From: Candidatus Latescibacterota bacterium
GTDB lineage: Bacteria; Latescibacterota; UBA2968; UBA8231
Direction of reading: 5' to 3'
Assembly (NCBI GenBank): GCA_965221775.1
Contig: CBDCSU010000006.1
Coordinates: 1,223,342 to 1,255,341, forward strand
Length of the DNA stretch: 32,000 nucleotides
Of this stretch, positions 4,149 through 31,217 are shown piece by piece. Numbering within the stretch: position 1 is the stretch's first letter; each line of letters begins with the position of its first letter. The translations under genes and the position numbers were made by a program. The notes beneath the pieces are model-generated. The model saw only the letters and a list, made by a program, of their open reading frames with translations, was not told the DNA's origin and did not search any database.

Positions 4149-4886
4149 ATGAACAGACGCAGTAACTCTCTCCGGGTGCTCGGCCCATTGCTGATCCCGG
4201 CGCTTGCGGCCTGTGACGTCAGTATCGGCTCGGAGGTGATCTCGGCCGAGACAGGGGACAGGACCATCCAGGTAACCGGGAGCGGTTCGGTTGCCGGCGA
4301 GCCCGATCTGGCAGCGCTCGATCTCGGTGTCTCTGTCGAGGGCGAGACCGTGGCGGAAGCCCGCGAAGCCGCTGCCGGAGCGATGACCGCGGTACTCAAC
4401 TCCCTGCGGGGGAACGATGTCGCCGAGGAGGACATGCAGACCGGGAATCTGGGCATCCATCCTCAATACGACTATGGCGAGGGGCAACGCACCCTCCGCG
4501 GGTACGTGGTGAACAACACCGTCCGCGTGAAGGTCCGGAGACTGGAGAGCCTCGGCGAGGTCATCGATGACGCCGCCGAGGCAGGAGGAAACAGCATCGT
4601 CATCAACTCGATTCGGTTCCTGATCGAGGACACCACGCCCCTGCAGACCCAGGCCCGCAGGCTGGCGGTGAAGGATGCCGAGGAGAAGGCGAGGACCTTG
4701 GCGGAAACCAGCGGCGCAAGCCTGGGGGAACCGCTCTCCATCACGGAGAGCACCTATCTGCAGGGACCGCCGAGCCCCTTCCAGGGCGAGGAAGCCTTCG
4801 CCGATGCAGCCCGCACGTCCACGCCCGTTCTCCCGGGGGAACTCACGGTCACCGTGGCCGTCACCGTGGTCTACCAGATCGAGTGA
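4149..4886 (+). CDS. SIMPL/DUF541 family periplasmic lipoprotein (BP26/Omp28-like)
   Basis: AGGAGG at 4138-4143 precedes ATG 4149. Lipobox-like LIPALAAC. IQVTGSGSVAGEPDLAALDLGVSVEG... and the C-terminal PGELTVTVAVTVVYQIE follow the SIMPL-domain pattern as I remember it. Confidence 0.8.
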   Translation: MNRRSNSLRVLGPLLIPALAACDVSIGSEVISAETGDRTIQVTGSGSVAGEPDLAALDLGVSVEGETVAEAREAAAGAMTAVLNSLRGNDVAEEDMQTGNLGIHPQYDYGEGQRTLRGYVVNNTVRVKVRRLESLGEVIDDAAEAGGNSIVINSIRFLIEDTTPLQTQARRLAVKDAEEKARTLAETSGASLGEPLSITESTYLQGPPSPFQGEEAFADAARTSTPVLPGELTVTVAVTVVYQIE

Positions 4887-4902
4887 GGCCCGGCGGCGAG
4901 CC

Positions 4903-7602: not shown

Positions 7603-7622
7603 GACATCCGACAAGGAGATCC

Positions 7623-10454
7623 ATGCGCACCACGAGAGTGCTGACAGCCGTCGGCCTGGCGGCGCTGATCGCCGGCCCGGCCTTCGCGCAGCAGAGCCCC
7701 CCGGGGCTGGACTGGCGGCGGATCCGGACCGAGCGGTTCAACGTCATCTTCCCCGCCCGGATCACCGCCGATGCCCAACGCGTGGCCAACACGCTCGAGC
7801 ACATCTACGGCCCGGTCTCGAAGACGCTGAAAGGTCCGGAGAAGCCGGTGGATGTGGTGCTGATGAACCAGGTGGCCGAGGCCAACGGCTTCGTCGCCAT
7901 GGCGCCCCGCCGCACCGTGTGGTTCAGCACCCCGCCCCAGGGCACGGGGCTCAGCGGCGAGTGGTACCAGTTGCTGGCCGTCCACGAGATGCGCCACGTG
8001 GTCCAGAACGACCGCCTGCGCCGGGGCTTCATCCGCCTGGCGTGGCTCCTCTCCGGAGAGTTCGGCCAGAGCGCGATGAGCCACCTGCTGGTGCCGTCGT
8101 GGTTCTGGGAGGGCGATGCCGTGGGGATCGAGACGGCCCTGAGCACGACCGGGCGCGGGCGCATGCCGCGGTTCGATCTGGACATCCGGGCCCTGCTCCT
8201 CGACGGACGGCGCTACTCCTACTACAAGGCCCTCCACCGCTCGTACCGCGACTGGTATCCCAGTCACTACCCCTTGGGGTACTTCCTGACGACCTACGTC
8301 CGGCGCCACCACGGCGCCGGGACGTGGGACCGGGTTCTGGGACGCACCGCCTGGTGGGGGTTCCACCCCTTCTCCTTCAGCCGCGCCCTGAGGAAGCACA
8401 CCGGCGCCAGCGCCGCCGGCACCTACGAGCGCGCCATGGACGAGCTGACCGGCTTGTGGCAGGCGCAGCAGGAGGGCCTGGTGACGACGCCCCTGCGGGT
8501 GCTGCCCGGTCAGAGCCAGTCGGACATCTGGACCAACTACTCGTACCCGCACCCGCTGCCGGACGGCAGTGTCCTGGCGAGCAAGGTCGGACTCGCCGAC
8601 CCGCCGACCCTGGTGAGGCTCCACCCCGACGGCCGCCAGGAGCGCCTGCGCCAGTACAGTTCCCTCGGCGGCTTTCGCGTCGGCGGCGGCATCGCCGCCT
8701 GGAACCGCCGCACCCCGGACCCGCGCTGGGGCTTCCGCAGCTACTCGGACATCATGGTCCTGGAGATCGACAGCGGCCGCGCGCGCCAGCTCACCCGCAA
8801 GGCCCGGCTCTTCGCCCCGGCTCCCTCTCCCGATGGCGCCCGCATTGCCGCCGTCGAGTTCGGGCCGGACCGGCGCTGCCACCTCGTGCTGCTGGAGACC
8901 GCCACGGGCGCCGAGCAGGCCCGGTTCCCGGCCCCCGACGGGGTTTTCTGGCGCAGACCGGCGTGGTCGGAGGACGGCCGCCATATCGCCGTGGTGCGCC
9001 AGGACGAGGCCGGCAACACCCTCGAGCGCATCGACGCCGCCGACGGCCGGGGGGAGATCGTGCTGCCCCATACCCACGACGTCATCGGCTGGCCGGTCTT
9101 CCGGGGTCCCTACCTGCTCTTCGACTCCCCCCGGTCGGGGATCGACAACATCCACGCCGTCCACCTGGCGAGCGGGGCCCGCTACCGGGTGACCTCCCGC
9201 CCCCTGGCGGCGACCCGTGCGGCCGTCGCCGGAGACTCCCTCCTGTTCCAGGAGTACACCGTCGACGGCTACCGCATCGCGGCCATGGCCCTGGACCCCG
9301 CGGCCTGGACGCCGGCCGAGCAGGTCGAGGACCGCAAGGTGCGCTACTTCGAGCCGCTCATCGACCAGGAGCACGGCGGTCCCCTGTCGATGGACATCCC
9401 GCCGCGGTCCTGGCCGGTGAGCGACTATCGGCCCCTGGCGAATCTGCTCAAAGTCCACAGCTGGTCCTTCAGTACCCTGTCGCCGCTCCACTCCCTCACC
9501 CTCATTTCCCGCGATCTCCTCGATCTCAGCAGTATGAGCGGCGGCGTCGAGTACAACAGCAACGAGAGCGCCTTCAGTGCCCTGGGCGGCCTCCGCCTGG
9601 CGGCGTGGTATCCGGTGCTCAGCGTCGGCGGCCGCTGGGGCGAGCGCGCCTCGGAGTACGAGATCGACGGGGAGAAGACCAGCGACAAGTGGACCGAGAA
9701 GAGCCTGCTGCTCGGGGCCCAACTGCCCCTGGACTTCTCCCGCGGCCCCTGGAGGTCTTTCGTCCAGATGGGCGCAGGGGTGGAGTGGACGGATATCTCC
9801 GGCCAGGCGATCGAGCTGTATCCACCCGACGCGGACGGCCTGTGGGACGGGAACGGGAACGGACGCTTCGCGCCCCTGACGTACCGGCTAACCCTCGGGC
9901 GGTTGCGCCAGCCGGCGTCTCGCGACCTGGCCCCGCTCTGGGGTCAGAGACTGCAGCTGGCCCTGCGCCACACGCCCCTGGCCGGCGACTACGACGGCAC
10001 CCTGCTGTCGGGGCGGCTGGTATTTCGCTTCCCCGGTCTGGCCGCCCACCACAGCCTGCGCCTCGACGGCGGCTACGAGTGGCAGGACCCCTCCGCGGAC
10101 GACGCCCTTCCCTACCGCTTTGCCAGCGAGCTGCCCTTCGTCCGCGGCTACGGCTACCGCTTCCACCGCCGGTTCCTGCAAGGGGGCGCCAACTATGCCC
10201 TGCCGCTGCTCTACCCCGACTGGAACCTGGGCGCGCTGGTCTACGTCAAGCGCCTCAAGGTCAACCTCTTCTACGACTACGGCCGCGGCGAGGACGACTC
10301 CCTGCCTGCCAGGGTCTACCAGTCGGCCGGCGGCGAGCTGACGGCGGACTTCCATCCCTTCTCGCTGCCGATCCCGCTGGACATGGGCGTGCGCTGCGCC
10401 TACCGCTTCGAAGAGGGAGATTCGCGCTGTGAAGCAGTGGTCAATTTGCAATAG
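7623..10454 (+). CDS. Secreted/outer-membrane multidomain protein: N-terminal HExxH zincin-like domain, PD40 (TolB-like) beta-propeller repeats, C-terminal Omp85/surface-antigen-like beta-barrel region
   Basis: AAGGAG (7613-7618) precedes ATG 7623. Signal peptide MRTTRVLTAVGLAALIAGPAFAQQ. HEMRH at 7983-7997. PD40-like APSPDGARIAAVEF and PAWSEDGRHIAVV. C-terminal alternating beta-strand-like sequence with PFVRGYGYRF and LKVNLFYDYGRG, reminiscent of Omp85 barrels. The track start at 6636 is rejected because it overlaps the upstream gene. Confidence 0.8.
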   Translation: MRTTRVLTAVGLAALIAGPAFAQQSPPGLDWRRIRTERFNVIFPARITADAQRVANTLEHIYGPVSKTLKGPEKPVDVVLMNQVAEANGFVAMAPRRTVWFSTPPQGTGLSGEWYQLLAVHEMRHVVQNDRLRRGFIRLAWLLSGEFGQSAMSHLLVPSWFWEGDAVGIETALSTTGRGRMPRFDLDIRALLLDGRRYSYYKALHRSYRDWYPSHYPLGYFLTTYVRRHHGAGTWDRVLGRTAWWGFHPFSFSRALRKHTGASAAGTYERAMDELTGLWQAQQEGLVTTPLRVLPGQSQSDIWTNYSYPHPLPDGSVLASKVGLADPPTLVRLHPDGRQERLRQYSSLGGFRVGGGIAAWNRRTPDPRWGFRSYSDIMVLEIDSGRARQLTRKARLFAPAPSPDGARIAAVEFGPDRRCHLVLLETATGAEQARFPAPDGVFWRRPAWSEDGRHIAVVRQDEAGNTLERIDAADGRGEIVLPHTHDVIGWPVFRGPYLLFDSPRSGIDNIHAVHLASGARYRVTSRPLAATRAAVAGDSLLFQEYTVDGYRIAAMALDPAAWTPAEQVEDRKVRYFEPLIDQEHGGPLSMDIPPRSWPVSDYRPLANLLKVHSWSFSTLSPLHSLTLISRDLLDLSSMSGGVEYNSNESAFSALGGLRLAAWYPVLSVGGRWGERASEYEIDGEKTSDKWTEKSLLLGAQLPLDFSRGPWRSFVQMGAGVEWTDISGQAIELYPPDADGLWDGNGNGRFAPLTYRLTLGRLRQPASRDLAPLWGQRLQLALRHTPLAGDYDGTLLSGRLVFRFPGLAAHHSLRLDGGYEWQDPSADDALPYRFASELPFVRGYGYRFHRRFLQGGANYALPLLYPDWNLGALVYVKRLKVNLFYDYGRGEDDSLPARVYQSAGGELTADFHPFSLPIPLDMGVRCAYRFEEGDSRCEAVVNLQ
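9921..9987 (+). repeat. Copy A of an imperfect direct repeat (inside the 7623-10454 CDS; encodes RDLAPLWGQRLQLALRHTPLAG)
   Basis: My hand alignment to 11609-11674 gives 7 mismatches and 3 single-nt indels over about 67 nt. Confidence 0.75.
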
Positions 10455-13102: not shown

Positions 13103-14143
13103 ATGTCTTCGTATGGCGATCATGGGCTGCCGCCGTTCCCGGAGGGGTGGTATCTCCTCACGACCCGCGAGTCCCTTCTCCGGAAGGGACTGATCGAGAA
13201 GACCTTCCTCGGCCGGCAAGTCGTCGCCTGGTGCGACGACGAAGGCCGCGTCTGCGTGGCCGACTCCGTGTGTCCCCACCTTGGCTCGAGCCTCGGTCCG
13301 GACGTGGGCGGCCAGGTGTGCAACGGCCGACTCGTCTGTCCCTTCCACGGCTTCCAGTTCGATGCCACCGGCCAATGCGTCGCCACCCCCAACGCCCCGG
13401 CCCCCAAGGCCGCCAGACTGAGCGTCTACCCCACCCGGGAGATCCTCGGCCTCGTCTTCGCCTGGTTCGGCAGCGGCGGCCGGCCTCCGCCCTGGGACCT
13501 TCCCGCGGCCCCTCCCACCACCCCGGAGTGGAGCAAGCCGGGATTCCGGCACCTCCGCTTCCGGGGCCATCCCCAGGAGACGGGGGAGAACTCCGTGGAT
13601 CTTGGACACCTCCGCTACGTGCACGGCTACGACAATGTGCATCCCGTCGGTTCGGTCACGGTGGACGGCCCCTACCTCAAGAGTTGCTTCGACTTCAAGA
13701 GGGTCCGCAGGATCCTCGGGGTAAAGGACCTCGTGTACGAGGTCTCGGCCGTCACCCACATCCATGGACTCGGCTACTCCCTGGTAGAGATCCACGAGAA
13801 GACGATCGACATGCATGCGAGATTGTGGGTGCTCCCCACACCGGTGGATGGCACGCTCCTCGACCTCGTGCTCGTCAGCCAACTGCGCGAGATCCGCAAG
13901 CCCCGGCGGTTCATCACCGGCCTGGGTTTCCTGCCCGGCAAGCTGCGCCAGAAGTCGATGAACCAGATCCTCCTCTCCCAGCAGAAGCGGGACGTCATCC
14001 AGGATGTGGTGATCTGGGAAGGAAAGCGGTTTCGGACGCCGCCGCGGCTGTGCCGGGCCGACGGCCCCATCGGGACGTACCGCCGCTACTGCCGGCAGTT
14101 CTATCCGGAAGACCCGCCGTCGGTGGAAGACGCCGCCGAATAA
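13103..14143 (+). CDS. Rieske [2Fe-2S] non-heme-iron oxygenase, alpha-subunit type (KshA / SdmA / Neverland-PAO-like class)
   Basis: Rieske motif CPHLG...(17 aa)...CPFHGFQF, with the CPH codons at 13271-13279 and the CPFH codons at 13337-13348. Mononuclear iron motif ENSVDLGHLRYVH fits E/D-x3-D-x2-H-x4-H exactly. The N-terminal FPEGWYLL...GLIEKTFLGRQVVAW is typical of this class. Confidence 0.85.
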   Translation: MSSYGDHGLPPFPEGWYLLTTRESLLRKGLIEKTFLGRQVVAWCDDEGRVCVADSVCPHLGSSLGPDVGGQVCNGRLVCPFHGFQFDATGQCVATPNAPAPKAARLSVYPTREILGLVFAWFGSGGRPPPWDLPAAPPTTPEWSKPGFRHLRFRGHPQETGENSVDLGHLRYVHGYDNVHPVGSVTVDGPYLKSCFDFKRVRRILGVKDLVYEVSAVTHIHGLGYSLVEIHEKTIDMHARLWVLPTPVDGTLLDLVLVSQLREIRKPRRFITGLGFLPGKLRQKSMNQILLSQQKRDVIQDVVIWEGKRFRTPPRLCRADGPIGTYRRYCRQFYPEDPPSVEDAAE

Positions 14144-14255
14144 CCGGCCACACAGGTTCGCCTCCGGACCAGAGCGCGGGAAGCCACCGAGGGTACCATG
14201 CGGCGCATCGCCATGATGTACGGGTGGCGCTTCAGGAAGGCGGCGGACTGAACGG

Positions 14256-15329
14256 TTACGGCTTACGAGCCAGGAAACAGTACAGGGGCGTGAAGATACC
14301 CGCCTTGCCGCCCGAGACATAAGCCTCCGCGGTGCGGTCCAGGAGTCGGACCACTTCCGCGGAGCCCTTCGGAAAGCGCCGCAGTACTTCAGCCAGCTTC
14401 GATCCTGCGATGACCGCTTTGCGGCCCCACGGAAGCCTGCGCAAGGCCTTCCCCAACGTCCCGTGGCGGCTCTCCATGGGCTGATACCAGGGTATGGAGG
14501 GGCCTTCCTGGACGTCCAGGTCCATCCCTTCCATGACCTGGAATCCCGCGGCTTCGAGGGCGTGATTCACTTCCCCGAAGGTGGCTATGTGCTTCAGCGC
14601 AATGCCGCGCATGAGATCCCGCTTGATGGCCCGGTGCCGGTCGTCCTTCGGATTGAACTGGTCTGTCAGACACATCTCCTGACCCCAGAACAGGGCCCCG
14701 GGTTTCAGCACGCGGAATACCTCCTCGAAGGCACGTTGCTTGTCCGGCGCGTGGCACGTCGACTCGATGGCATAACCCCGATCGAAGGTGCCGTCCTCAA
14801 TGGCCCTCATGTCCATGAAGCTGCACGTCTCGAAATCGACCATGTGATCGAGCCCCGCCTCGGCGATCGACCCTCTCGCCTTTTCCAACTGCACCTCGCT
14901 GATGTTGATCCCCACGACCCTGACACCAGCCTCCCGGACGACGCGGAGCATGGGGGCGCCGACTCCACAACCAACGTCGACCACCGTCATACCCTTTTGC
15001 AGCTCCAACTTGGAGATCATCATCCGCTGATGCCGGACCTTGGATTCCTCCAGACTCTCATCAGGTGTGAGGGGCGCGAAGTGCAGGGATTCGCCCCAGC
15101 CCCATACCATGAACCCGCTGCAAAGGTCGTAATAGTCCTTCACTGTTTCAGTGTGTTCGTAGCCGCCTGCGCCACCGGGCTGCGGCGCCGCCCGGTCGAG
15201 CCAGCCGTCGAAGTGCTGCACTCGACGCGCGACGCCCGATCCCCGGTACGCATCTCTCAGATCTCTCGACAGCTTGCCCAGCCGCACCCGGTCTTTCTCC
15301 CTGGCTCCAGGAACGAGCCATGTCGTCAA
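14256..15329 (-). CDS. Sterol C-24 methyltransferase family protein (ERG6/SMT-type SAM-dependent methyltransferase with Sterol_MT_C-like tail)
   Basis: YYDLCSGFMVWGWGESLHFAP, the SAM motif VVDVGCGVGAP, YAIESTCHAPD, and the C-terminal GGKAGIFTPLYCFLARKP. These match my memory of yeast Erg6: YYNVVTDFYEYGWGSSFHF, LDVGCGVGGP, YAIEATCHAP, GGKSKLFTPMMLFVARKP. The track start is TTG 15329, 3 nt after the upstream stop; an in-frame GTG about 40 nt downstream is an alternative. Confidence 0.9.
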   Translation of the reverse strand: MTTWLVPGAREKDRVRLGKLSRDLRDAYRGSGVARRVQHFDGWLDRAAPQPGGAGGYEHTETVKDYYDLCSGFMVWGWGESLHFAPLTPDESLEESKVRHQRMMISKLELQKGMTVVDVGCGVGAPMLRVVREAGVRVVGINISEVQLEKARGSIAEAGLDHMVDFETCSFMDMRAIEDGTFDRGYAIESTCHAPDKQRAFEEVFRVLKPGALFWGQEMCLTDQFNPKDDRHRAIKRDLMRGIALKHIATFGEVNHALEAAGFQVMEGMDLDVQEGPSIPWYQPMESRHGTLGKALRRLPWGRKAVIAGSKLAEVLRRFPKGSAEVVRLLDRTAEAYVSGGKAGIFTPLYCFLARKP

Positions 15330-15332
15330 TCG

Positions 15333-17360
15333 TCAGGCGGACAGCTCCCGTCTCTGCTCGGCGATGCGGAACTTCAGCTTCTTGCTCGGTTTGAGCGACG
15401 GAAAGGGACTGAAACGGAGCTTGTACTTCGCTGGCGACACCTCGATCGTGAAGTAGTGCGCCAGCATCAGCAAGTTGGCCGCCAGGTGCAGCTCCATCCA
15501 CCGGGTGCCCAGACACTTGTGCGTACCCAGCCCGTACGGGGCGTACCCGGGGCTGCGATGCTCATGGCGCGGGGCCAGGTAGCGGTCGATGTCGAACTTC
15601 CAGGGATCCGGAAAGACCTCGCTCATGTAATGCGTGGCGGTCATGGCGATGTGGACCCGTTCGCCCACGCGCAGCTCGTAGTCCTCGACCACGCACGCAT
15701 TCATCACGTTCCGCATGGACATGGAGACGATGGGGTACATGCGCAGGCACTCCATGAGGAAGCGGTGCGTCACGTCGATCCTGTCGGGGGTGAAGTCCTC
15801 TCTCTCGGGGTCGCCCTTGGCGAACAGGGCATCCGCTTCGGTCTGGATTCTGGCGTAGAGGTCGGGCTGGGACGCCATGGCGTAGACTACGAGGCTGAAC
15901 GTATCGCCGAGGTAAACGCTGGCAATCAAGGCCGCGGAAAAGGCGAAGAGCAGGTTGGACTCCGGGAGAAACTGCGGGTCGCTGGCGTGCAGGCTGAGGT
16001 AATCGTCCACGAGGTCCCGCGGGAGGTCCGCCCGTTGGGCGGGGGTATGGATGCCCTGGATCCGCTGCATCAGGGTGTCCAGGGCTTTCGCCCGGCGTCT
16101 CATGCCCGGGGTGTTCAGCATGAATCGGGGCAGGAGCTTGGCGATGTGCACGCTGAGGGCCCGTTCCTTGTAGGCCATCAGGTCGTCCATGAGGTCCTGG
16201 GTGTCGACGCTGAGGAACAGGGGCGAGAGCTGGGCGTTCACCATCCCCCGGCACATGGACGTGGCGCGGTAGGAGTCCCCAACCGTCAAGCTCGCCATGT
16301 ACTTGCGCCCCTGATTGTAGAGCTGGTCCAGCTGCTCTCCCAGCCTCGCGCCGGAAAAGGCCGGGGACAAGGACTTGCGAAGCCGGAAGTGATCGGCGCC
16401 GTCCAGGGCGGGCAGGACGCCGGCCGCGCCGTAGACCTTCTCGAAGTCGCTGAAGTAGTCCCTGCATCTCAGGTACATGCGCCCGCGCTTGTGCACCCAG
16501 CGGTTTGTCTCGAGTCCGGCCAGGAAGATCATGGGCTCCGAGAAGGGAGGGCGGATCTGGAACACCGGACCGTACTCCTCCGCAAGGCTCCCGAAGAGCG
16601 CGTTCAGGTTGCCGTCTCGAACATGCGGGTTCATCATCAGCTTGGGCAGCGAAACCGCCGGGATCTTCCTGGTAAGGGGGGGACGTTGAAGGGCCGGGCC
16701 GGTGAGGTTCTGAGAGACCGCAGCGGCCAGGGAGCGGCCGATCAGGTCCATCTTGCAGATGAACTCGATGCGCTCTTCCGCCTCGTCGTCAAGTTCGAAT
16801 ATGAAGCGAAAGACGTCGCACGTATTGATGAGGCAGATAATGATGACATCTCTCGGATCGGGAATCTTGTCGGTGAAGATGACCCTGCTGATACGCGTCT
16901 TTATGAACTGGCCCGCAGTGCCCTCCTCCGACCTGCCGTACAGTTTCCCATGCCAAACAGTAGGAGCCAGCGTCCAGAAATCGCCGTCGTGGTATTCCAG
17001 GATCTTCAGGTCAACCAGGCGATCCAGAACCGAATCGATGATCGACTCCGCACGGGGAGCGAGCCGTTCAATCCAGTACTGGGCGTTCCGTTGAACAGAT
17101 TCGGCTGCAATTTCTTTCAGAATGGGGTCCAGGGCAGGGTTGCCTGTTTCCGACGCGTCCACGAGGAACAGGGATTCCATGTCCGTGTCGATGCGAGATC
17201 TGAGTGAAAGCTCCGCGAGCACGGCACCGACCAGGGCACAGTTCAGATGCCAGCCGGGTACCTGATGAAAGTAGCCGGTCTCCTCGTTGAGGAGCATCAG
17301 GATGAGCTCTTGAGTCAGAGTCAGCGGTTGGGGCGTCAAACCCTCCGTAGTGTCAGTCAT
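15333..17360 (-). CDS. Fusion protein: N-terminal GPP34/GOLPH3-like domain plus C-terminal cytochrome P450
   Basis: N-terminus LTLTQELILMLLNEETGYF...LNCALVGAVLAELSLRSRI...GNPALDPILKEI...PDPRDVIIICLINTC follows the bacterial GPP34 pattern. C-terminus has ExxR (ECLR), PDPWKFDIDRY, and the heme loop PYGLGTHKCLG with the Cys codon at 15513-15515. The ATG start shares a base with the RND stop (TGATG at 17358-17362). Confidence 0.85.
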   Translation of the reverse strand: MTDTTEGLTPQPLTLTQELILMLLNEETGYFHQVPGWHLNCALVGAVLAELSLRSRIDTDMESLFLVDASETGNPALDPILKEIAAESVQRNAQYWIERLAPRAESIIDSVLDRLVDLKILEYHDGDFWTLAPTVWHGKLYGRSEEGTAGQFIKTRISRVIFTDKIPDPRDVIIICLINTCDVFRFIFELDDEAEERIEFICKMDLIGRSLAAAVSQNLTGPALQRPPLTRKIPAVSLPKLMMNPHVRDGNLNALFGSLAEEYGPVFQIRPPFSEPMIFLAGLETNRWVHKRGRMYLRCRDYFSDFEKVYGAAGVLPALDGADHFRLRKSLSPAFSGARLGEQLDQLYNQGRKYMASLTVGDSYRATSMCRGMVNAQLSPLFLSVDTQDLMDDLMAYKERALSVHIAKLLPRFMLNTPGMRRRAKALDTLMQRIQGIHTPAQRADLPRDLVDDYLSLHASDPQFLPESNLLFAFSAALIASVYLGDTFSLVVYAMASQPDLYARIQTEADALFAKGDPEREDFTPDRIDVTHRFLMECLRMYPIVSMSMRNVMNACVVEDYELRVGERVHIAMTATHYMSEVFPDPWKFDIDRYLAPRHEHRSPGYAPYGLGTHKCLGTRWMELHLAANLLMLAHYFTIEVSPAKYKLRFSPFPSLKPSKKLKFRIAEQRRELSA
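15336..16655 (-). other. Cytochrome P450 domain (about residues 236-675 of the fusion)
   Basis: LPALDGADHFRLRK, I-helix-like AALIASVYLGDTFS, ExxR, and the heme-thiolate loop GLGTHKCLG. The CYP family is not assignable by eye. Confidence 0.8.
16716..17324 (-). other. GPP34/GOLPH3-like domain (about residues 13-215 of the fusion)
   Basis: See the parent CDS. The boundaries are my visual estimate. Four 60-nt samples taken between 16741 and 17100 hand-count at 47-58% GC, against 63% for a P450-domain sample. Confidence 0.7.
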
Positions 17361-20300
17361 CAGCCTTCACTCCCTGCGTCTGCACCGGGGACGCGCCGGG
17401 AGCCGGAAGGGCCGCTCGAGGCCGTCAGACGCGAGTGGATGGTGGAAAGAGCGGGAACGACCATCATCAGTACGGCGGTGACAATGAGAATGCCGCAACC
17501 GAGGGATGCGGCAAAGGGGATCAGGAACTGGGCCTGAATGGCGCGTTCCAGAATGAGGGGCGTGAAGCCGAGGAAGGTGGTCACGGAAGTGAGCATGATC
17601 GGACGAAAGCGGCCCTTGGCGCCCTCGATGATCGCTGTTCGCGCCGGGGCCCCGTCCCTGAGTTTCTGATCGATGAAATCGATCATGACCAGGGAATCGT
17701 TCACGACAACCCCGCTCAGGCCGAAGATACCCATGAAGGATACCGCGCTCAAGGCCACTCCCAGGACCCAGTGGCCCAGGATCACCCCGATGAACCCGAA
17801 GGGGATGACGGCCATGATGATGAGGGGCTTGGTATAGGAGCGAAGTGGAATGGCGAGGAGCGCGAAGATCATGATCAGGGCGATGGCGAACCCCCGGTAC
17901 AGGGCATCCAGGGACTCGAGTTGCTGTTGCTGCTCCCCTCCGAAGCTGTATGTCAGGTCAGGGTGCACGGCGGTCAGGCCCGGGAGGATCGAATTGGCCA
18001 GGATGTCGTTGGCTTCGTCACCGGAAATCACCGAAGCATCGACGTCCGCCGTGACCGTGACGACGCGCTGGCCGTCCTTCCGTCGGATGGCCGGCGGCGA
18101 CACGCCCGGGCTCAGGGAGGCCACACTCATGACCGGGACCTCGGCCCCGCCCGGGGTGCGGACCAGGTACCCTTCGACATCGGTGATGGAGTCACGCTCA
18201 TGGGCGGGGAGGCGCACGTAGACCCGGACCTCTTCCCGGCCGCGCTGCACCCGAACCGCCTCTGCGCCGAAGAACGCGGCGCGCGCCTGCCCGGCCAGCT
18301 CCTGGAGCGTGAGACCGAGGGTGCGCGCTTCCGGCCGGAGCTCCAGTTGCACCTCCGGGATGCCCGGCGTGTGATCCGAACGTATGTCGTAGACGCCTCC
18401 CACACTTCGGAGGCCTTCGACCACCGAGTCCGCGATCTCGGCGAGAAGCTCCGGGTCCGGATGCGACAGCACGGCCTCCACGGCGTTGCCCAAGGTGAAG
18501 ACCTCGGCGCTGAAGGTGATGCCGCGCACATGGGGCAGGACTCCCACCTCCTCCCGCCACGCCTGCACGACCTCTCCGGTGGAGATCTGTCTCTGCTGCG
18601 CGCCCAGGAGCTTGAACTCGATGGTGGCGATATTGGCTTGGGGATTGAGTGTGGGCTCCGGGTTGAGCCCGCCCTCGAGTCTCGACCCCTGTCCGACGGT
18701 CACCGTCACACCGGTCAGCAGCGGTGGCGCGTCCCCGGGCCGGCCGAGGGAGAGTCGTTCGATGACCCGGTGGCCTGCGGCCTCCAGTTCCCGCGCCACT
18801 TCGTACGTCCTCGGAGCGGTCGCCCCATCGGGCATCTCCAGGACGACCGTCGCGATATCCCCCTCCACCTCAGCGGCCAGCGTGGTAGGAACGATGCCCG
18901 CGGGCAACAGGGAGATGCTCAGCACGAGCATTCCCACGGCCCCCGCCATCGTCACCCCGGGCTGGTCCGTGGCGAACCTCAGGGCCCGGTCCAGAGGCCC
19001 TTGCAGGAACCTGTTCAGCAGCGCGTTCACGCGCCCCTGGAGCCGCGCGAAGAACCGGTCGAAGGCATTGGCCGGCTCCCACTCCGGGCCGTGCAAATGG
19101 GACAGGTGGTTGGGCAGCACCAGCAGCGATTCGACCAGGGAAACCAGCAGCATGGCGATGATGATGATCGGCAGGGCCCGCCAGACGTCACCGACGCCTC
19201 CCGGGATGAACAGCAAGGGGACGAAGGCCACCACCGAAGTGAGGACGGCGAAGGTCAAGGGCACCTTGATCCGCCGTACGCCTCGGATCGCGGCCGCGAC
19301 CCCGGGGGTCCCCCGCTTGCGTTCCGATTGAATGTGCTCGGCCACGACGATGGCATCGTCGACGATGATGCCGATGGCGAGGACGAAGGAGAACAGGCTG
19401 ATGGTGTTGATCGCCACGTCGAGTGCCATCATGATGGCGAGGGCGCCCATACCAGAAACGGCGAGGCCCACGGCGACCCAGAGGGCGAGCCGGATTTCGA
19501 GAAACAGGCTGAGTGCGATCAGCACCAGCACCAGCCCCAGGAGCCCGTTCTTGAGGAGGAGATCGGCGCGTTCCTCGTAGACTTGGGATTCGTCATTCCA
19601 CATGGTGACGCCCACACCGTCCGGCAGGGCCGGGATCACCTCGTCCGCCAGGTGCTCGCGGACGGTCCTGGCCACGTCCATCACCTGCTCGCCATCGGCC
19701 CGGTAGACCTCGACGAAGACGGCGGGGTGGTTCTGATGCCGCACGATCAGGTCCGCTTCCTGGAAACCGTCGCGGACCTCGGCGATATCTCCAAGGCGCA
19801 GGACCGTGCCGTCACGGCCGCTGAGGAGGACGACCTCCTCGAAGTCCTTCTGGTCGTAGTTCTGGCCGAGGGTGCGGACCCTCACCTGGGATTCCCGGGT
19901 ATCGATGCTGCCGGCGGACAGGTCCAGGGAACTCCGGCGAATCGTGTCGGCGATGTCGGTGAGCGTGAGTCCGAGGGCCCGCAGGCGGTGGAGGGGCACC
20001 TCGATGGAGATCTCGTAGCTCCGGACACCGCTGACCTCGACCTGGGAGACGGAGGGGAGCGTCGTGAGGTCGTCCTCGATCTGGTACGCCAGTTCCTTCA
20101 GCGCGCGCTCGGAGACGTCGCCGTGGACGATGAGCCGCATCATGCTCAGGCGGTTGTCCATCTCCCGGAACAGGGGACGTTCGGCGCCGGCCGGGAAGGA
20201 CTGTATTCGATTGACCGCGGACTCGATATCGTCCAAGGCCCGGGCCATGTCCGTATCGAAAGCCATTTGAACCCGCACCGAGGCCATACCCGGGGCGGCT

Positions 20301-20581
20301 ACGGACTTGACCGCCTTCACGTCATCCAGCCCGCTGACCTGGTCCTCGATCCTGACGACGATCGACTCCTCGATCTCCTCCGGTGTGGCGCCGGGATAGG
20401 CCATCGAGACTTCGATATGGTAGAATGGGGTCGTGGGCCAGGCTTCCCGCTCGATACCGGTCAGCGCCACCACCCCGGCGGCGACGATGGCCCACATCAA
20501 CAGGTTGGCGGCCACACCGTTGCCGGCCATGTAGGCGATCGGGCCGGGCCGTTCCTCGTGATTGCCGTTGCCGGGACTCAT
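17360..20581 (-). CDS. RND efflux transporter permease subunit (AcrB/HAE-type, 12-TM, about 1073 aa)
   Basis: Length and layout fit: an N-terminal TM, then the large periplasmic loop PGATPEEIEESIVVRIEDQVSGLDDVK, two TM bundles with GIIVDDAIVV and VVVNDSLVMIDF motifs. The start shares ATGA with the adaptor stop (20578-20581). Confidence 0.92.
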   Translation of the reverse strand: MSPGNGNHEERPGPIAYMAGNGVAANLLMWAIVAAGVVALTGIEREAWPTTPFYHIEVSMAYPGATPEEIEESIVVRIEDQVSGLDDVKAVKSVAAPGMASVRVQMAFDTDMARALDDIESAVNRIQSFPAGAERPLFREMDNRLSMMRLIVHGDVSERALKELAYQIEDDLTTLPSVSQVEVSGVRSYEISIEVPLHRLRALGLTLTDIADTIRRSSLDLSAGSIDTRESQVRVRTLGQNYDQKDFEEVVLLSGRDGTVLRLGDIAEVRDGFQEADLIVRHQNHPAVFVEVYRADGEQVMDVARTVREHLADEVIPALPDGVGVTMWNDESQVYEERADLLLKNGLLGLVLVLIALSLFLEIRLALWVAVGLAVSGMGALAIMMALDVAINTISLFSFVLAIGIIVDDAIVVAEHIQSERKRGTPGVAAAIRGVRRIKVPLTFAVLTSVVAFVPLLFIPGGVGDVWRALPIIIIAMLLVSLVESLLVLPNHLSHLHGPEWEPANAFDRFFARLQGRVNALLNRFLQGPLDRALRFATDQPGVTMAGAVGMLVLSISLLPAGIVPTTLAAEVEGDIATVVLEMPDGATAPRTYEVARELEAAGHRVIERLSLGRPGDAPPLLTGVTVTVGQGSRLEGGLNPEPTLNPQANIATIEFKLLGAQQRQISTGEVVQAWREEVGVLPHVRGITFSAEVFTLGNAVEAVLSHPDPELLAEIADSVVEGLRSVGGVYDIRSDHTPGIPEVQLELRPEARTLGLTLQELAGQARAAFFGAEAVRVQRGREEVRVYVRLPAHERDSITDVEGYLVRTPGGAEVPVMSVASLSPGVSPPAIRRKDGQRVVTVTADVDASVISGDEANDILANSILPGLTAVHPDLTYSFGGEQQQQLESLDALYRGFAIALIMIFALLAIPLRSYTKPLIIMAVIPFGFIGVILGHWVLGVALSAVSFMGIFGLSGVVVNDSLVMIDFIDQKLRDGAPARTAIIEGAKGRFRPIMLTSVTTFLGFTPLILERAIQAQFLIPFAASLGCGILIVTAVLMMVVPALSTIHSRLTASSGPSGSRRVPGADAGSEG

Positions 20582-21756
20582 GGCGCGGGGTCGGCCTCCG
20601 TGAGGACGCGCATGCCCTCGGTGGCGAACCGGATTCCGCCGGTGACTACCGTGCCGCCGCCTTCCAGGCCGCCGGTGACGAATACCCGGTCGTCGGCGCG
20701 CTGAAGCACGCGCACCGGAACGATGCTCACCACCCCGTCCTTCACCGTCCAGACCTCGTCGCCCGGCTGGAGGGCTGCTCTCGGCACCTTGAAGTAATCA
20801 TCCGGCGCCAGGCCCTCGATCTCCACCTCCACGAAGGCACCCACGAGCAACGGATGCACGCCCGCCGGGAACGGGTCCGTCACGCGCACGATCACGTCGA
20901 TGGTGCGCGTTCGCGCGTCGAGGGCCGCCTCGCCCCGATCGACGTAGCCCTCCCAGGCATGACTCCCGCCGCGCGACGGGGCGACCACCCGGGCCGCCAC
21001 CCGCCGGTCCCCATCCCCCGGCGCGAGTTCCCACAGCCCCGGGATCAGGGCCGCGTCGGCATCGGAGACGGGCACCACCACCTCCACCGCATCCGCGGCG
21101 AAGAGGCGCCCCACGCTCTGTCCGGGCGCGAGAATCTGTCCCACGTCGACGGACTCGTCGCGCACGAAGCCGTCGAAGGGCGCGGTCACCCGTGTCCTGG
21201 AAAGGGAGAGCTCCGCGTCGGCCAGCCGTGCCTGGTCGCGCTCGAGGGCGGCACGGGCCGCCTCCAGTTGCGGCTCCCTCAGGGTGAGGGGACTGGCGGC
21301 CGGCGCCGAAGATGCACTCCCCTGCCGCTCGGAGTAGAGCCGGTACTGGTCGCGGGCGATGGCGGCCCGTTCCTCTTCCTCGAGCAGGGCCACGCGGCGG
21401 GCGGCGAGATTGGCCTCGGCTTCCTGCACCCGGTGGAGGTAGTCCGCCTCTTCGATGCGGAACAGCGCCTGGCCCGCCTTCACCCGGCCCCCGCTCTGGA
21501 ATCCCGGGTCCACCCACACGACTCGCCCGCCCACCTGCGGCGCCACGTCGATCTCCGCGCTCGGCCTCACGGTGCCGGCCCCGTACACGGGTATGGCGCC
21601 GGACCCGGCCGTTACCCGGCCCGTCTGGGCGAAGGGGATCTGCGGCGGCGGCTCGGTGCGGGCCGGCTCGGGGGCCATGGAGACCAGGAGGGCCGCCAGG
21701 CCCACGGCAACGACGAGGATGGCGGCGGCGGCGACGAGGCTGCGGATGCGGGACAT
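20578..21756 (-). CDS. RND efflux periplasmic adaptor (membrane fusion protein, HlyD/AcrA family)
   Basis: The start is moved to ATG 21756 (MSRIRSLVAAAAILVVAVGLAALLV, a membrane anchor). Also present: barrel-sandwich and coiled-coil regions (EADYLHRVQEAEANLAARR...QLEAARAALERDQARLADAELSLSRTRVTAPFDGFV). The track start at 21891 would overlap the OMF gene. Confidence 0.85.
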   Translation of the reverse strand: MSRIRSLVAAAAILVVAVGLAALLVSMAPEPARTEPPPQIPFAQTGRVTAGSGAIPVYGAGTVRPSAEIDVAPQVGGRVVWVDPGFQSGGRVKAGQALFRIEEADYLHRVQEAEANLAARRVALLEEEERAAIARDQYRLYSERQGSASSAPAASPLTLREPQLEAARAALERDQARLADAELSLSRTRVTAPFDGFVRDESVDVGQILAPGQSVGRLFAADAVEVVVPVSDADAALIPGLWELAPGDGDRRVAARVVAPSRGGSHAWEGYVDRGEAALDARTRTIDVIVRVTDPFPAGVHPLLVGAFVEVEIEGLAPDDYFKVPRAALQPGDEVWTVKDGVVSIVPVRVLQRADDRVFVTGGLEGGGTVVTGGIRFATEGMRVLTEADPAP

Positions 21757-21763
21757 GGGCGAC

Positions 21764-23308
21764 TTACTCCGTGGAGGTCGGCGGCGGGGTAGCGGCAGCC
21801 GCGCTGCTCTGCCGGATGGCTTCCCGGTTGTCGGCGGTCCACGCGCCGCCCAGCGCGCGGTGCAGCGCGAGGCGGGCGTAGCCGAGGTCACGTTCGGCGG
21901 CCGCCTGCGCGGCCTGCGCGCCGAGGAGAGTCTGCGATGCGGCCAGGAAAGCCTCGTACCCGCCGACCCCGGAGAGGTACCGCCGCTCCTGCAACCCCGC
22001 TTCGGCCCCGGCCTCCTCTGCCAGCGAGACCAGCAGCGAGTGGCGGCGGCGGCTGGCCTCCAGACCGGCGAGAGCGGCCTCGACCTCGTTGACCGCGGTC
22101 ACCACGGCCCGCCCGTAGGCGGCGGCCGCCTCATCCAGCCGGGCCTCGGCGAGAGCGACATTGCCGCGAAGGCGTGAACCCTGGAAAACCGGGCCGAGCA
22201 GGTTCAGGCTGAGATTCCGGAACCACTGATCCGGGTCGAACCACTCGTCCGCCTCGGTGCTCTGCACTCCGATGGAGCCGTGCAGGGACAGTCGCGGCAG
22301 CAGGTCCGCGCGGCGGGCGCCGACGGTGTACCGGGCCGCTTCCGCCCGCTGCCTGGCGGCGCCGACGTCGGGCCGCTGCGCCAGGAGGCCGGCGGGAATG
22401 CCGGCCGGGACCGGCTCCAGCGCCGCGGCAGGGGTCAGCGGGCCGGGCAGCCTGTCCGCGAGGTCGGCGCGGTAACCTCCCAGGAGCACCCACAGCCGCC
22501 CCTCCGCATCGGCCAGCAGGGCCTCGATCTGCGGCAGCCCGGCCTGCGTGTTGCGCAGATGGCGCCGCGCCGCATGGAGGCCGCCCGCATCGCTCAGGCC
22601 GCGGCCATAGCGGGACTCGGCAAGGGACTCCTGGTGCCGCAGGATCTCCACGATCTCGCCGGTCAGCCTCCGCTGCCGGCGCAGGTTGGCGATCTCGAGG
22701 TAGGTCCGCACGGTCTCGGCCAGCACCCCCATGCGGGCTGTGAGGTAGTCGGACTCCGAGGCCAGCCGCGCGGCCCCGGCGGCGAGGGCGTCGTTTCGGT
22801 TCCGGCCCCAGAAGTCGAGCTCGTAGGCGACTTCCGCGGCGGCGGTATAGGTGGTCAGTCCGAGACGGTCGGGGAGAACGAGTCCGGATGCACCCAGACC
22901 GGACTCCAGGCCCAGTTCGTCGAATTGGGCGCCGATGCCCGCATTGGTGGGTGTGTCGGAGTCGCTGACGCCGACCGAGGGCTGAAGGAGCGGAAAGACC
23001 GGGGCCCTGGCGATGCGGGCCCGGGCCCTGGCCTGATCGACCCGGGCCACCGCCGCGGCCAGGTCGAAGTTCGAGGCGAGCACCTCCGCGATCACCCGGT
23101 CGAGCATCGGGTCGGAAAAGCTCTTCCACCACTCCCGCGGCTCGTAGGGACCGGCCGCTTCCCCGCCGGCGAACCCGGCCGGCAGCTCCTCCACCGACTC
23201 GAGGACCGGGGGGGTCTGCTTCGGTGCAAGGGAGCAGGCGGAGATGAGACAGCCGACGATGGCCGGCCTCAGCAATCCGGAAACCTGGTTCCTCCCATAG
23301 CAGGCCAT
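21764..23308 (-). CDS. RND efflux outer-membrane factor lipoprotein (NodT/TolC family)
   Basis: Lipobox GCLISAC. WWKSFSDPMLDRVIAEVLASNFDLAAAVARVDQARA and the repeated alpha-helical/beta-barrel halves are typical of NodT-family OMFs. Stop TAA at 21764-21766. Confidence 0.88.
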   Translation of the reverse strand: MACYGRNQVSGLLRPAIVGCLISACSLAPKQTPPVLESVEELPAGFAGGEAAGPYEPREWWKSFSDPMLDRVIAEVLASNFDLAAAVARVDQARARARIARAPVFPLLQPSVGVSDSDTPTNAGIGAQFDELGLESGLGASGLVLPDRLGLTTYTAAAEVAYELDFWGRNRNDALAAGAARLASESDYLTARMGVLAETVRTYLEIANLRRQRRLTGEIVEILRHQESLAESRYGRGLSDAGGLHAARRHLRNTQAGLPQIEALLADAEGRLWVLLGGYRADLADRLPGPLTPAAALEPVPAGIPAGLLAQRPDVGAARQRAEAARYTVGARRADLLPRLSLHGSIGVQSTEADEWFDPDQWFRNLSLNLLGPVFQGSRLRGNVALAEARLDEAAAAYGRAVVTAVNEVEAALAGLEASRRRHSLLVSLAEEAGAEAGLQERRYLSGVGGYEAFLAASQTLLGAQAAQAAAERDLGYARLALHRALGGAWTADNREAIRQSSAAAATPPPTSTE

Positions 23309-24964: not shown

Positions 24965-25039
24965 GATGCCCTCCCTGCAAACCCTCGCTTCGTGCTCACC
25001 TTCGGTTTGTCTATCATTGCGCGCCCGCAGAGACGCCTT
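24965..25039. promoter_or_regulatory. Divergent intergenic region between the GH-like gene (-) and the BNR gene (+)
   Basis: Lower local GC (tttgtctatcattgc...gaaattgtac). The length depends on the uncertain start of the + gene. Confidence 0.3.
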
Positions 25040-30077: not shown

Positions 30078-30078
30078 G

Positions 30079-30864: not shown

Positions 30865-30866
30865 CC

Positions 30867-31217
30867 ATGAGACTGAAACTGATCGTCGCCCTGGTGAGCG
30901 ACGACAAGACCGATACCGTGGTCGATGCGGCGCGCGCCGGCGGCGCCACCGGCGCGACGATCTTCACCGGCGTGCGCGGCGAAGGGCTGAAGCCCCAGAA
31001 GACCTTCTTCGGTCTCGACCTGGCGGCCCGGCGCGACGTCGTCCTCTTCCTGGTGGTCGAGCCACGGGCGCGCGACATTCTGGAACGGATCCGGGATGCC
31101 GGGCACTTCGAGGACGAGCCCGGCGCCGGCATCGCCTTCCAGGTTCCCATCGAGGACGCCGTCGGTCTCACCACCCAACTCCCCACCATCCTCGAAGAAG
31201 TGGATGACGAGATATGA
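30867..31217 (+). CDS. P-II-like signal-transduction protein (GlnB-fold, non-canonical T-loop)
   Basis: AAGGAG (30853-30858) precedes ATG 30867. 116 aa. MRLKLIVALVSDDKTDTVVDAARAGGATGATIFTGVRGEG...VVLFLVVEPRARDILERIRDAG...GIAFQVPIEDAVG follows the beta-alpha-beta P-II pattern. Confidence 0.78.
   Translation: MRLKLIVALVSDDKTDTVVDAARAGGATGATIFTGVRGEGLKPQKTFFGLDLAARRDVVLFLVVEPRARDILERIRDAGHFEDEPGAGIAFQVPIEDAVGLTTQLPTILEEVDDEI

What the first reader, a model, noticed from the sequence alone, without database searches (positions are those of the whole stretch)
14256..15329. Full-length eukaryote-type sterol C-24 methyltransferase (ERG6/SMT) homologue in a bacterial context
Seen: all the blocks I associate with Erg6/SMT1 are present in order. 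These are YYDLCSGFMVWGWGESLHFAP, VDVGCGVGAP, YAIESTCHAPD and the C-terminal GGKAGIFTPLYCFLARKP, which is the Sterol_MT_C region absent from generic class I methyltransferases. Established: SMTs are a hallmark of eukaryotic sterol side-chain alkylation. Bacterial homologues have only recently been reported, mainly from uncultured bacteria, and they matter for interpreting 24-alkyl sterane biomarkers. Inference: this enzyme methylates a sterol or related triterpenoid side chain. The bacterial genomic context here (efflux pump, P450, Rieske) is informative and unusual.
Basis: partly seen in the sequence, partly recalled or inferred. Interest (0 to 1): 0.78.

Follow-up and report, generated by a model that had tools for sequence, protein, structure and literature searches.

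The report
Sponge-symbiont variant sterol methyltransferase cassette
The gene is a real bacterial relative of sterol side-chain methyltransferases, but it belongs to a distinct sponge-symbiont subfamily whose one tested member was inactive on standard sterols and which travels between bacterial phyla in a 10-kb cassette with two oxygenases and an efflux pump.

Summary
The ORF is real (14256-15329, minus strand; likely start GTG at 15287, 343 aa). It passes Pfam Sterol_MT_C (52.9 bits; cut-off 21.7) and is 33% identical to yeast ERG6 over its full length. It is not a canonical SMT. It sits in a well-supported subfamily (96% bootstrap) with an invariant pocket signature (ERG6 numbering): Y81M, F89L, T219L, Y223Q, Ile249. 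The catalytic and SAM-binding residues H90, D125, G129, P133 and E195 are kept. It has 22 of the 25 residues conserved in all functional SMTs. Its 79%-identical orthologue, "Nitrospira sp., coral reef 2 of 2", appears in the "No activity" group of Brown & Welander's alignment (substrates: desmosterol and 24-methylenecholesterol). The gene is part of a discrete ~10.1-kb block: KshA-type Rieske oxygenase, SMT, GPP34-P450 fusion, and an RND/MFP/OEP pump. This block recurs at 77-86% nucleotide identity in at least ten phyla, in sponge or coral symbiont assemblies wherever provenance could be checked (median dS ~0.55, dN/dS ~0.21). The most likely role is an active methyltransferase with a different sterol-type substrate or regiochemistry. 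The substrate is unknown.

The parts
14256..15287 (-). SMT-B: a variant sterol-methyltransferase-family protein of 343 aa from a GTG start (the maximal ORF from TTG at 15329 gives 357 aa)
   Evidence: ORF and motifs. Pfam Sterol_MT_C 52.9 bits plus a class I methyltransferase domain. 33% identity to ERG6. Start codon supported by homologue lengths and an upstream GGGAG. 22 of 25 functional-SMT residues, with signature M81/L89/L219/Q223/I249.
15333..17360 (-). GPP34-cytochrome P450 fusion ('GPP34_L'), 675 aa, located 45 bp upstream of the SMT
   Evidence: Pfam GPP34 (residues 15-216) and p450 (239-662). Heme loop YGLGTHKCLG and ExxR motif are intact. Weak best PDB matches are CYP51 enzymes. The orthologue is directly adjacent to SMT-B in 59 of 80 genome loci. 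The family is reported as exclusive to sponge symbionts in PMC11706023.
13103..14143 (+). KshA-type Rieske non-heme-iron oxygenase, 346 aa, convergent with the SMT across a 112-bp gap
   Evidence: Pfam Rieske plus KshA_C. The best PDB match is 3-ketosteroid 9alpha-hydroxylase KshA, E=3e-23. CPH..CPFH and ENSVDLGHLRYVH motifs are intact. An orthologue is present in 66 of 80 loci.
17360..20581 (-). RND inner-membrane transporter (AcrB/MexB type); its stop overlaps the P450 start by 1 bp
   Evidence: Pfam ACR_tran 523 bits. PDB best hits are MexB, AcrB and MdtB-type pumps. Overlaps with neighbouring genes. 85-93% identical across phyla and present in 37 of 80 loci.
20578..21891 (-). Membrane-fusion (periplasmic adaptor) protein of the pump; the start codon is uncertain
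   Evidence: Pfam HlyD_3 and HlyD_D23. Called as 336 aa on the near-identical contig L001.
21764..23308 (-). Outer-membrane efflux protein (TolC-like), the first gene of the string
   Evidence: Pfam OEP, two repeats. Conserved in the same position in L001 and 13 other loci.
13125..23270 (.). The mobile cassette: a ~10.1-kb block shared at DNA level with other lineages
   Evidence: In blastn of the window against all loci, 11 loci from Latescibacterota, Gemmatimonadota, Opitutales and unclassified MAGs match only window ~13,125-23,270, at 77-86% nucleotide identity. No terminal repeats above chance. No tRNA in the window.

Best explanation
The gene encodes a catalytically competent SAM-dependent C-methyltransferase of the sterol-methyltransferase family, in a distinct subfamily I call SMT-B. 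The SAM-binding and catalytic residues are retained. The residues lining the sterol side-chain pocket are changed in a fixed way (Y81M, F89L, T219L, Y223Q, Ile at position 249). I therefore infer that it methylates an olefin in a sterol-type lipid other than the delta-24(25) or delta-24(28) bonds of desmosterol and 24-methylenecholesterol. That means a different sterol nucleus, a different side-chain double bond, or an oxidised intermediate. It works as part of a co-inherited module. The adjacent GPP34-P450 and the KshA-type Rieske oxygenase would oxidise the same scaffold. The translationally coupled AcrB-type tripartite pump would export the product, or protect the cell from it. Shown here: family membership, the signature residues, the gene linkage, the sharp cassette boundaries, horizontal spread with purifying selection, and the link to sponge and coral assemblies. 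Taken from the literature: the orthologue's inactivity in vitro. Inferred: the substrate class, cooperation among the cassette enzymes, and export. It is unresolved whether the sterol is made by the bacterium or taken from the host.
For: Family membership: Sterol_MT_C above cut-off, and 33% identity to ERG6 over the full length, E=3e-63. Nearest library neighbours are all SMT-like, and verified rice SMT1, grass SMT2 and fungal ERG6 representatives lie outside the clade. Subfamily: 96% bootstrap. The signature is invariant in 82 of 82 genome copies and persists down to ~60% identity in sponge metagenomes. Likely active: H90, D125, G129, P133 and E195 are kept; median dN/dS is 0.21. Substrate differs: the orthologue L028:10001-11035 is IMG 2682229270, 'Nitrospira sp. 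coral reef 2 of 2', and it is listed under 'No activity'. The neighbouring canonical SMT-A ('1 of 2') made (epi)codisterol. Sterol link: in Nitrospirales the trio lies beside ERG24, SdmA, SdmB, SMT-A, CYP51 and an SQMO-OSC fusion. The Rieske protein's best PDB match is KshA and the P450's best matches are CYP51 enzymes. Linkage: GPP34-P450 is adjacent in 59 of 80 loci, the Rieske gene is present in 66 of 80, and the RND pump in 37 of 80. Genes in the string overlap by 1-4 bp. Mobility: the cassette-only DNA match, proteins 74-89% identical across at least 10 phyla, and median dS of 0.55.
Against: No member of the subfamily has a demonstrated product. The in vitro negative could reflect poor expression in E. 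coli lysate. In most hosts the cassette is not next to sterol-synthesis genes (5-7 of 80 loci). I could not show that the window's host has an oxidosqualene cyclase. The KshA and CYP51 similarities are weak (E 1e-16 to 1e-23, partial length). AcrB-type pumps are generic, and this one is absent from about half of the loci. No ferredoxin or reductase partner is present in the window. The structure model was too poor (pLDDT 44) to show that the signature residues line the pocket.
Confidence: 0.55

Rival explanations
1. It is an ordinary C-24 sterol methyltransferase. On this view the orthologue's inactivity is an assay artefact, or reflects a requirement for a different sterol nucleus such as zymosterol, lanosterol, cycloartenol or a 4-methyl sterol.
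For: It has the SMT architecture and all five residues shown to be essential in yeast. SMTs are known to be selective for the sterol nucleus (established knowledge). [quoted passage not shown] In Nitrospirales it lies in a sterol-synthesis cluster.
Against: F89 is conserved in every functional SMT tested, yet it is Leu in all 82 clade members. Y81, T219, Y223 and position 249, which govern side-chain handling, are all replaced in a fixed way. Nitrospirales already carry a canonical, active SMT-A in the same cluster. The subfamily is tightly linked to two oxygenases that canonical SMTs do not need.
Confidence: 0.2
2. It methylates a non-sterol olefin, for example an unsaturated fatty acyl chain, squalene or another acyclic isoprenoid, or a hopanoid. 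On this view the cassette makes a symbiont lipid unrelated to sterols.
For: SMTs and cyclopropane or branched-chain fatty-acid methyltransferases share the same olefin-methylation chemistry, and Pfam CMAS hits at 75 bits. SMT-like enzymes of Botryococcus methylate squalene and botryococcene (established knowledge). Most cassette copies are not near sterol genes. A recurrent LkcE-like flavoprotein (37 of 80 loci) weakly resembles a fatty-acid double-bond isomerase.
Against: The Sterol_MT_C domain and the E195 region are retained. All NCBIfam fatty-acid methyltransferase models score far below their cut-offs. The cassette lies beside a sterol cluster in every Nitrospirales locus. Sterol core clusters are reported in most of the same symbiont classes (PMC9531527).
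Confidence: 0.17
3. It is a degenerate, non-catalytic paralogue retained for a structural or regulatory role. One such role would be as a partner of the GPP34 protein in the phagocytosis-evasion function proposed for that family.
For: The tested orthologue showed no activity. The protein has 3 deviations from the 25 'functional' residues. A host-interaction role has been proposed for GPP34 proteins (PMC11706023).
Against: The SAM-binding motif and catalytic His and Glu are invariant across 82 copies. dN/dS is 0.21. Only the most divergent branch (L144, L148, L149) has H90Q.
Confidence: 0.05

Closest known systems
'Nitrospira sp., coral reef 2 of 2' SMT homologue (IMG 2682229270; Brown et al. 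2023, Brown & Welander 2025)
   Same: It is in the same subfamily, 79% identical and of the same length. It has the same signature residues and the same neighbours, a KshA-type Rieske gene and a GPP34-P450 gene.
   Different: That copy sits beside a full sterol-synthesis cluster in a Nitrospirales genome and lacks the RND pump. The window copy is in a Latescibacterota- or Gemmatimonadota-like host, fused into an efflux operon, with no sterol genes within 32 kb. The published work recorded it only as inactive and did not describe the subfamily or its context.
Canonical sterol C-24 methyltransferases (yeast ERG6, plant SMT1 and SMT2, and bacterial 'SMT-A' such as Nitrospira '1 of 2')
   Same: The fold family is the same: a class I methyltransferase domain plus Sterol_MT_C, with Regions I-IV recognisable. 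H90, D125, G129, P133 and E195 are conserved. Identity is 33% to ERG6 and 42% to SMT-A.
   Different: Pocket residues differ: Y81M, F89L, T219L, Y223Q, Ile249. It forms a separate clade with 96% support. The orthologue is inactive on desmosterol and 24-methylenecholesterol. It is obligately linked to oxygenases.
GPP34_L (GPP34 + cytochrome P450) proteins of sponge symbionts (PMC11706023, Microbiome 2025)
   Same: The window's neighbouring gene has exactly this architecture. The family is described as monophyletic and restricted to sponge symbionts.
   Different: That paper proposes phagosome manipulation through PI4P binding and never mentions sterols or methyltransferases (0 occurrences each). 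Here the fusion is shown to be adjacent to an SMT-family gene in 59 of 80 loci, and to lie next to sterol-synthesis genes in Nitrospirales. That points to a role in lipid tailoring.
Clusters of steroid-biosynthesis genes (ERG24-CYP51-LSS) in sponge symbionts (PMC9531527)
   Same: They occupy the same habitat. They show the same pattern of cross-phylum horizontal transfer under purifying selection, and they occur in overlapping host classes.
   Different: They are a different gene set. The SMT-B cassette is a separate block, usually at another locus.
SMT-family enzymes with non-C-24 chemistry: C. elegans STRM-1 (sterol C-4 methylase acting on 3-ketosterols) and Botryococcus triterpene methyltransferases
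   Same: They are precedents, from established knowledge and not tested here, that the SMT fold can be re-targeted to another position or to an acyclic triterpene.
   Different: No sequence comparison was made here. Their hosts are eukaryotes, and no cassette context is known for them.

Membership tests
Sterol methyltransferase family (SMT/ERG6) | C-terminal Sterol_MT_C domain (PF08498) above Pfam's gathering score | tested here: met
   52.9 bits against a cut-off of 21.7, residues 296-357. The canonical neighbour SMT-A scores 80.4 bits.
Sterol methyltransferase family (SMT/ERG6) | Full-length homology to a characterised SMT, stronger than to non-sterol methyltransferases | tested here: met
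   ERG6: 194 bits, 33% identity over 339 aa. The best non-SMT PDB hit is 3bus at 92.6 bits, covering the methyltransferase core only. All NCBIfam non-sterol models are far below their cut-offs.
Sterol methyltransferase family (SMT/ERG6) | Residues essential in yeast ERG6 (H90, D125, G129, P133, E195) | tested here: met
   All five are present in the window protein and in 82 of 82 clade members. The ERG6 numbering was validated against 29 residues quoted in the preprint.
Functional C-24 SMTs as defined by Brown & Welander 2025 | Region I motif GWGxxFHF | tested here: not met
   The window has GWGESLHF. Leu at position 89 is invariant in the clade.
Functional C-24 SMTs as defined by Brown & Welander 2025 | [quoted passage not shown] | tested here: not met
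   22 of 25 are present. The deviations are T78S, F89L and G132A (residue list).
Functional C-24 SMTs as defined by Brown & Welander 2025 | Methylation of a delta-24 sterol in vitro | not testable with these tools
   Literature only. The 79%-identical orthologue is in the 'No activity' group for desmosterol and 24-methylenecholesterol. Other sterols have not been tested.
Eukaryotic SMT1, SMT2 and ERG6 clades | Phylogenetic placement inside a eukaryotic SMT clade | tested here: not met
   In a neighbour-joining tree (126 sequences, 316 columns, 200 bootstraps), the window falls in a bacterial-only clade with 96% support that excludes rice SMT1, grass SMT2 and fungal ERG6 representatives. Deeper branching is unresolved.
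Sponge-symbiont SMT-B cassette (defined here) | Signature M81/L89/L219/Q223/I249, plus an adjacent GPP34-P450 and a KshA-type Rieske gene | tested here: met
   The window has all five signature residues and both neighbours. The same block is found in other phyla.
Cyclopropane or mycolic-acid synthases (CMAS) and sarcosine/dimethylglycine N-methyltransferases | Score above the curated family cut-off | tested here: not met
   NCBIfam scores against cut-offs: sarcosine/dimethylglycine methyltransferase 73 vs 550, CfaB 58 vs 650, mycolic-acid methyltransferase 49 vs 390. The Pfam CMAS hit covers only the shared core.

The most novel reading that the evidence does not exclude
SMT-B is the missing sponge-type side-chain methyltransferase. 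One candidate activity is C-26 methylation of delta-25 sterols such as (epi)codisterol, which is the product of the neighbouring canonical SMT-A. On this reading, sponge-diagnostic sterols (aplysterol-type 26-methyl sterols, precursors of the 26-methylstigmastane biomarker) are made or finished by bacterial symbionts carrying this mobile cassette.
Probability: 0.12. Interest if true: 0.9.

Novelty: new variant of a known kind. Interest (0 to 1): 0.66.

Why it matters
Side-chain-alkylated steranes (24-isopropylcholestane, 26-methylstigmastane) are used as the oldest chemical evidence for animals. It is still an open question whether sponges or their bacteria make the precursor sterols (PMC10070321; PMC12541326, 2025). 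Enzymes for the C-26 methylation have not been found. This analysis defines a sponge-symbiont SMT subfamily with a re-modelled substrate pocket that does not accept the two standard substrates. That gives a concrete candidate enzyme and a short list of substrates to test. It also connects two separate literatures. The 'GPP34-P450' protein was proposed as a phagocytosis-evasion factor of sponge symbionts, and bacterial sterol alkylation was studied independently. The GPP34-P450 gene turns out to be physically and evolutionarily coupled to an SMT-family gene and a steroid-type Rieske oxygenase, which argues for a lipid-tailoring role. Finally, a 10-kb block shared at about 80% DNA identity across at least ten phyla is a clear example of habitat-specific horizontal transfer.

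Tried and rejected
1. Structure route. I therefore ran no fold search and could not map the signature residues onto a pocket.
2. OSC in the window's host. I searched with the OSC domain from L046 and looked up cluster names. Both lists are truncated, so this is inconclusive. The triterpenoid-cyclase survey (PMC12414744) mentions none of the relevant phyla.
3. Other tested 'No activity' SMTs. I tried to learn whether they also belong to SMT-B. The OCR of the Region I block of the preprint's alignment was unreadable. None of the tested contigs appeared among the 80 metagenome loci.
4. PI4P-binding residues. The GPP34 domain gave no PDB hit at E<=0.01, so they could not be checked.
5. Operon signals. 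The promoter and terminator scan found nothing above the shuffle expectation.
6. Mobile-element signatures. There are no tRNA genes in the window, and only chance-level repeats at the cassette edges. No integrase or transposase domain appeared in the Pfam scans.
7. Rejected assignments. Tocopherol, cyclopropane fatty-acid and glycine/sarcosine methyltransferase assignments all score far below their curated cut-offs.
8. Base composition as transfer evidence. The cassette core is only modestly GC-poorer than the rest of the window (0.632 vs 0.686), and other window segments are similar. This is weak on its own.

Full report
OBSERVATION. The ORF reported at 14256-15329 (minus strand) exists. It is 357 aa from a TTG start and contains all four quoted sequence blocks in order. 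Third-codon-position GC of 0.78 supports it as a real gene in this ~68% GC window. Pfam finds a class I methyltransferase core and the SMT-specific Sterol_MT_C domain at 52.9 bits, against a cut-off of 21.7. BLASTP against yeast ERG6 gives 33% identity over 339 residues, E=3e-63, running through the C-terminal domain. Homologues are 343-344 aa, and a GTG at 15287 has a GGGAG upstream. The CDS is therefore probably 14256-15287.

NOT A GENERIC METHYLTRANSFERASE. The best solved-structure relatives are RebM-like and MitM-like enzymes and cyclopropane synthases. They match only the methyltransferase core, at no more than 93 bits. Every NCBIfam model for sarcosine/dimethylglycine, cyclopropane fatty-acid, mycolic-acid, UbiE or tocopherol-type enzymes scores far below its cut-off.

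A DISTINCT SUBFAMILY. An exhaustive search of 1.84 billion cluster representatives shows a compact SMT family of 235 clusters at E<=1e-30. In a bootstrapped distance tree (126 sequences, 316 columns, 200 replicates), the window protein falls in a clade with 96% support. That clade excludes representatives I verified as rice SMT1, grass SMT2 and Cladosporium ERG6. Deeper branching is unresolved, as Brown et al. also found. The 2025 preprint lists 25 residues conserved in all functional SMTs. The window protein keeps 22 of them, including the five shown to be essential in yeast (H90, D125, G129, P133, E195). It deviates at T78S, F89L and G132A. F89L is invariant in 82 of 82 clade members. So are substitutions at positions known to steer side-chain handling: Y81M, T219L, Y223Q and Ile at 249. 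The signature persists down to ~60% identity in an independent set of sponge-metagenome copies. Canonical bacterial SMTs in the same loci ('SMT-A') keep the standard residues.

THE ORTHOLOGUE HAS BEEN ASSAYED. Locus L028 is a 70,077-bp Nitrospirales contig from the coral Porites lutea. It matches the contig length given by Brown et al. 2023 for 'Nitrospira sp., coral reef 1 and 2'. Gene-by-gene counting across L028 reproduces the paper's gene numbering: SMT-B, Rieske, OMP, flavoprotein, SMT-A, SdmB, SdmA, ERG24. The window's 79%-identical orthologue is therefore IMG 2682229270, '2 of 2'. In Supplementary Figure 1 of the 2025 preprint this protein sits in the 'No activity' block. [quoted passage not shown] The neighbouring SMT-A ('1 of 2') made (epi)codisterol from desmosterol.

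PROBABLY STILL AN ENZYME. The SAM-binding and catalytic residues are invariant. Pairwise dN/dS against 81 orthologues has a median of 0.21.

CONTEXT: A MOBILE CASSETTE. On the minus strand the window carries OEP (21764-23308), a membrane-fusion protein, an AcrB-type RND pump (17360-20581), a GPP34-P450 fusion (15333-17360) and the SMT. A KshA-type Rieske oxygenase (13103-14143) converges on the SMT from the plus strand. The P450, RND and MFP genes overlap by 1-4 bp. Both oxygenases have intact cofactor motifs. Their best solved relatives are KshA (E=3e-23) and, weakly, CYP51 enzymes (E~1e-16). Among 80 species-representative genomes carrying SMT-B, the GPP34-P450 orthologue is present in 63 and directly adjacent in 59. 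The Rieske gene is present in 66, the RND pump in 37, and an LkcE-like flavoprotein in 37. Core sterol-synthesis genes are present in only 5-7, all Nitrospirales. At the DNA level, eleven loci match the window only over ~13,125-23,270, at 77-86% identity. They are labelled Latescibacterota, Gemmatimonadota, Opitutales or unclassified. The matched span runs exactly from the Rieske gene to the OEP gene. I found no terminal repeats, tRNA genes or integrase.

HORIZONTAL SPREAD AND HABITAT. SMT-B proteins are 74-89% identical across Latescibacterota, Gemmatimonadota, Chloroflexota, Nitrospirota, Nitrospinota, Acidobacteriota, Actinomycetota, Bacteroidota (Rhodothermales), Verrucomicrobiota, Binatota and Thermodesulfobacteriota. 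Median synonymous divergence is only ~0.55, which does not fit vertical descent between phyla. Many isolate names indicate sponge or coral MAGs. The sponge origin of the UUID-named MAGs is my inference. A scan of 241 million JGI metagenome records found 91 relatives. Of the 80 loci kept, 74 carry contig prefixes that I could tie to Petrosia, Sarcotragus or Aplysina sponge metagenomes. The other six carry neighbouring IMG series numbers that I did not verify. The window's host is probably related to L051 and L057, which share synteny over 14-19 kb at ~87% identity. Their public labels disagree (Latescibacterota versus Gemmatimonadaceae).

LINKS TO THE LITERATURE. PMC11706023 reports the GPP34+P450 architecture as monophyletic and exclusive to sponge symbionts. 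It proposes a PI4P-based phagocytosis-evasion role and never mentions sterols or methyltransferases. Brown et al. never mention GPP34, P450, Rieske or efflux. PMC9531527 shows that ERG24-CYP51-OSC clusters are horizontally spread among sponge symbionts of 10 phyla. Most of those phyla overlap the SMT-B hosts, but Latescibacterota is not listed. The SQMO-OSC fusion in the Nitrospirales loci is likewise 77-92% conserved across taxa. The linkage of SMT-B to GPP34-P450 and the Rieske gene appears undescribed in the searchable library.

INTERPRETATION. The best-supported reading (confidence 0.55) is an active SMT-family methyltransferase whose altered pocket directs it to a sterol-type substrate or position other than those tested. 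It would work with the two adjacent oxygenases, and its product would be handled by the co-transferred pump. Three rivals remain. It could be a canonical C-24 SMT with an untested nucleus preference or an assay artefact (0.20). It could be a non-sterol olefin methyltransferase (0.17). It could be a non-catalytic relic (0.05). The most novel reading not excluded is a C-26-type methyltransferase acting on the codisterol made by SMT-A (0.12). That would bear directly on the sponge-biomarker debate, where such an enzyme is explicitly still sought.

LIMITS. No product is known for any member of the subfamily. The in vitro negative covers one orthologue and two substrates. The tree is distance-based. 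The structure model failed. Whether the window's host makes sterols is undetermined.

Noticed in passing
L046:4360-8022 (also L034, L037, L039, L043, L087, L088): Nitrospirales sponge and coral symbionts encode a single 1,220-aa squalene epoxidase-oxidosqualene cyclase fusion next to a CYP51-like P450. Homologues are 77-92% identical across Nitrospira, Acidimicrobiia, Alphaproteobacteria and Gammaproteobacteria MAGs, so the core sterol pathway also appears to spread horizontally.
   Followed up: partly
L028:5582-7432 and 36 other loci; absent from the window: A 616-aa amine-oxidase-family flavoprotein recurs beside SMT-B in 37 of 80 loci. Its best PDB relatives are LkcE and a fatty-acid double-bond isomerase-like protein. 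It could be a reductase or isomerase for the methylated product, but its role is unknown.
   Followed up: partly
L027:1443 and 2521; L018:3425; L031:3896; L075:15114: Some loci carry one or two further SMT-like genes, 46-53% identical to SMT-A, within 10 kb of SMT-B. In L027 they form a tandem pair. Multi-SMT clusters therefore exist outside Nitrospirales.
   Followed up: no
L144, L148, L149 (sponge metagenome contigs, 59-60% identical): The most divergent SMT-B branch has Gln in place of the catalytic His90 and Ala at position 132. These copies may really be inactive or may use different chemistry.
   Followed up: no
window 23417-26275 (-), 4675-7602 (+), 7541-10432 (+): Three large ORFs (952, 975 and 963 aa) have no Pfam match, or only an FlgD Ig-like match. 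The 952-aa ORF lies immediately upstream of the cassette and is 89-98% conserved in L051 and L001, but it is not part of the block shared with other lineages.
   Followed up: partly
window 26170-29166 (+): A UvrD/REP-type helicase carries two C-terminal topoisomerase-type C4 zinc ribbons, an unusual domain combination.
   Followed up: no
window 29343-31615 (+): Two tandem DUF1538 membrane proteins are followed by a CBS-domain protein. This looks like a conserved trio of unknown function.
   Followed up: no
L051 (OZ220089.1) versus L057 (JAPOZM010000066.1): Both loci share 14-19 kb of synteny with the window at ~87% nucleotide identity. One is labelled Candidatus Latescibacterota and the other Gemmatimonadaceae, so one of the public taxonomic labels, or a bin assignment, is probably wrong.
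   Followed up: no
window 13103-17360: The cassette core (Rieske, SMT, P450) has lower GC (0.632) than the rest of the window (0.686). This fits foreign origin but is not distinctive, because other window segments are similar.
   Followed up: yes
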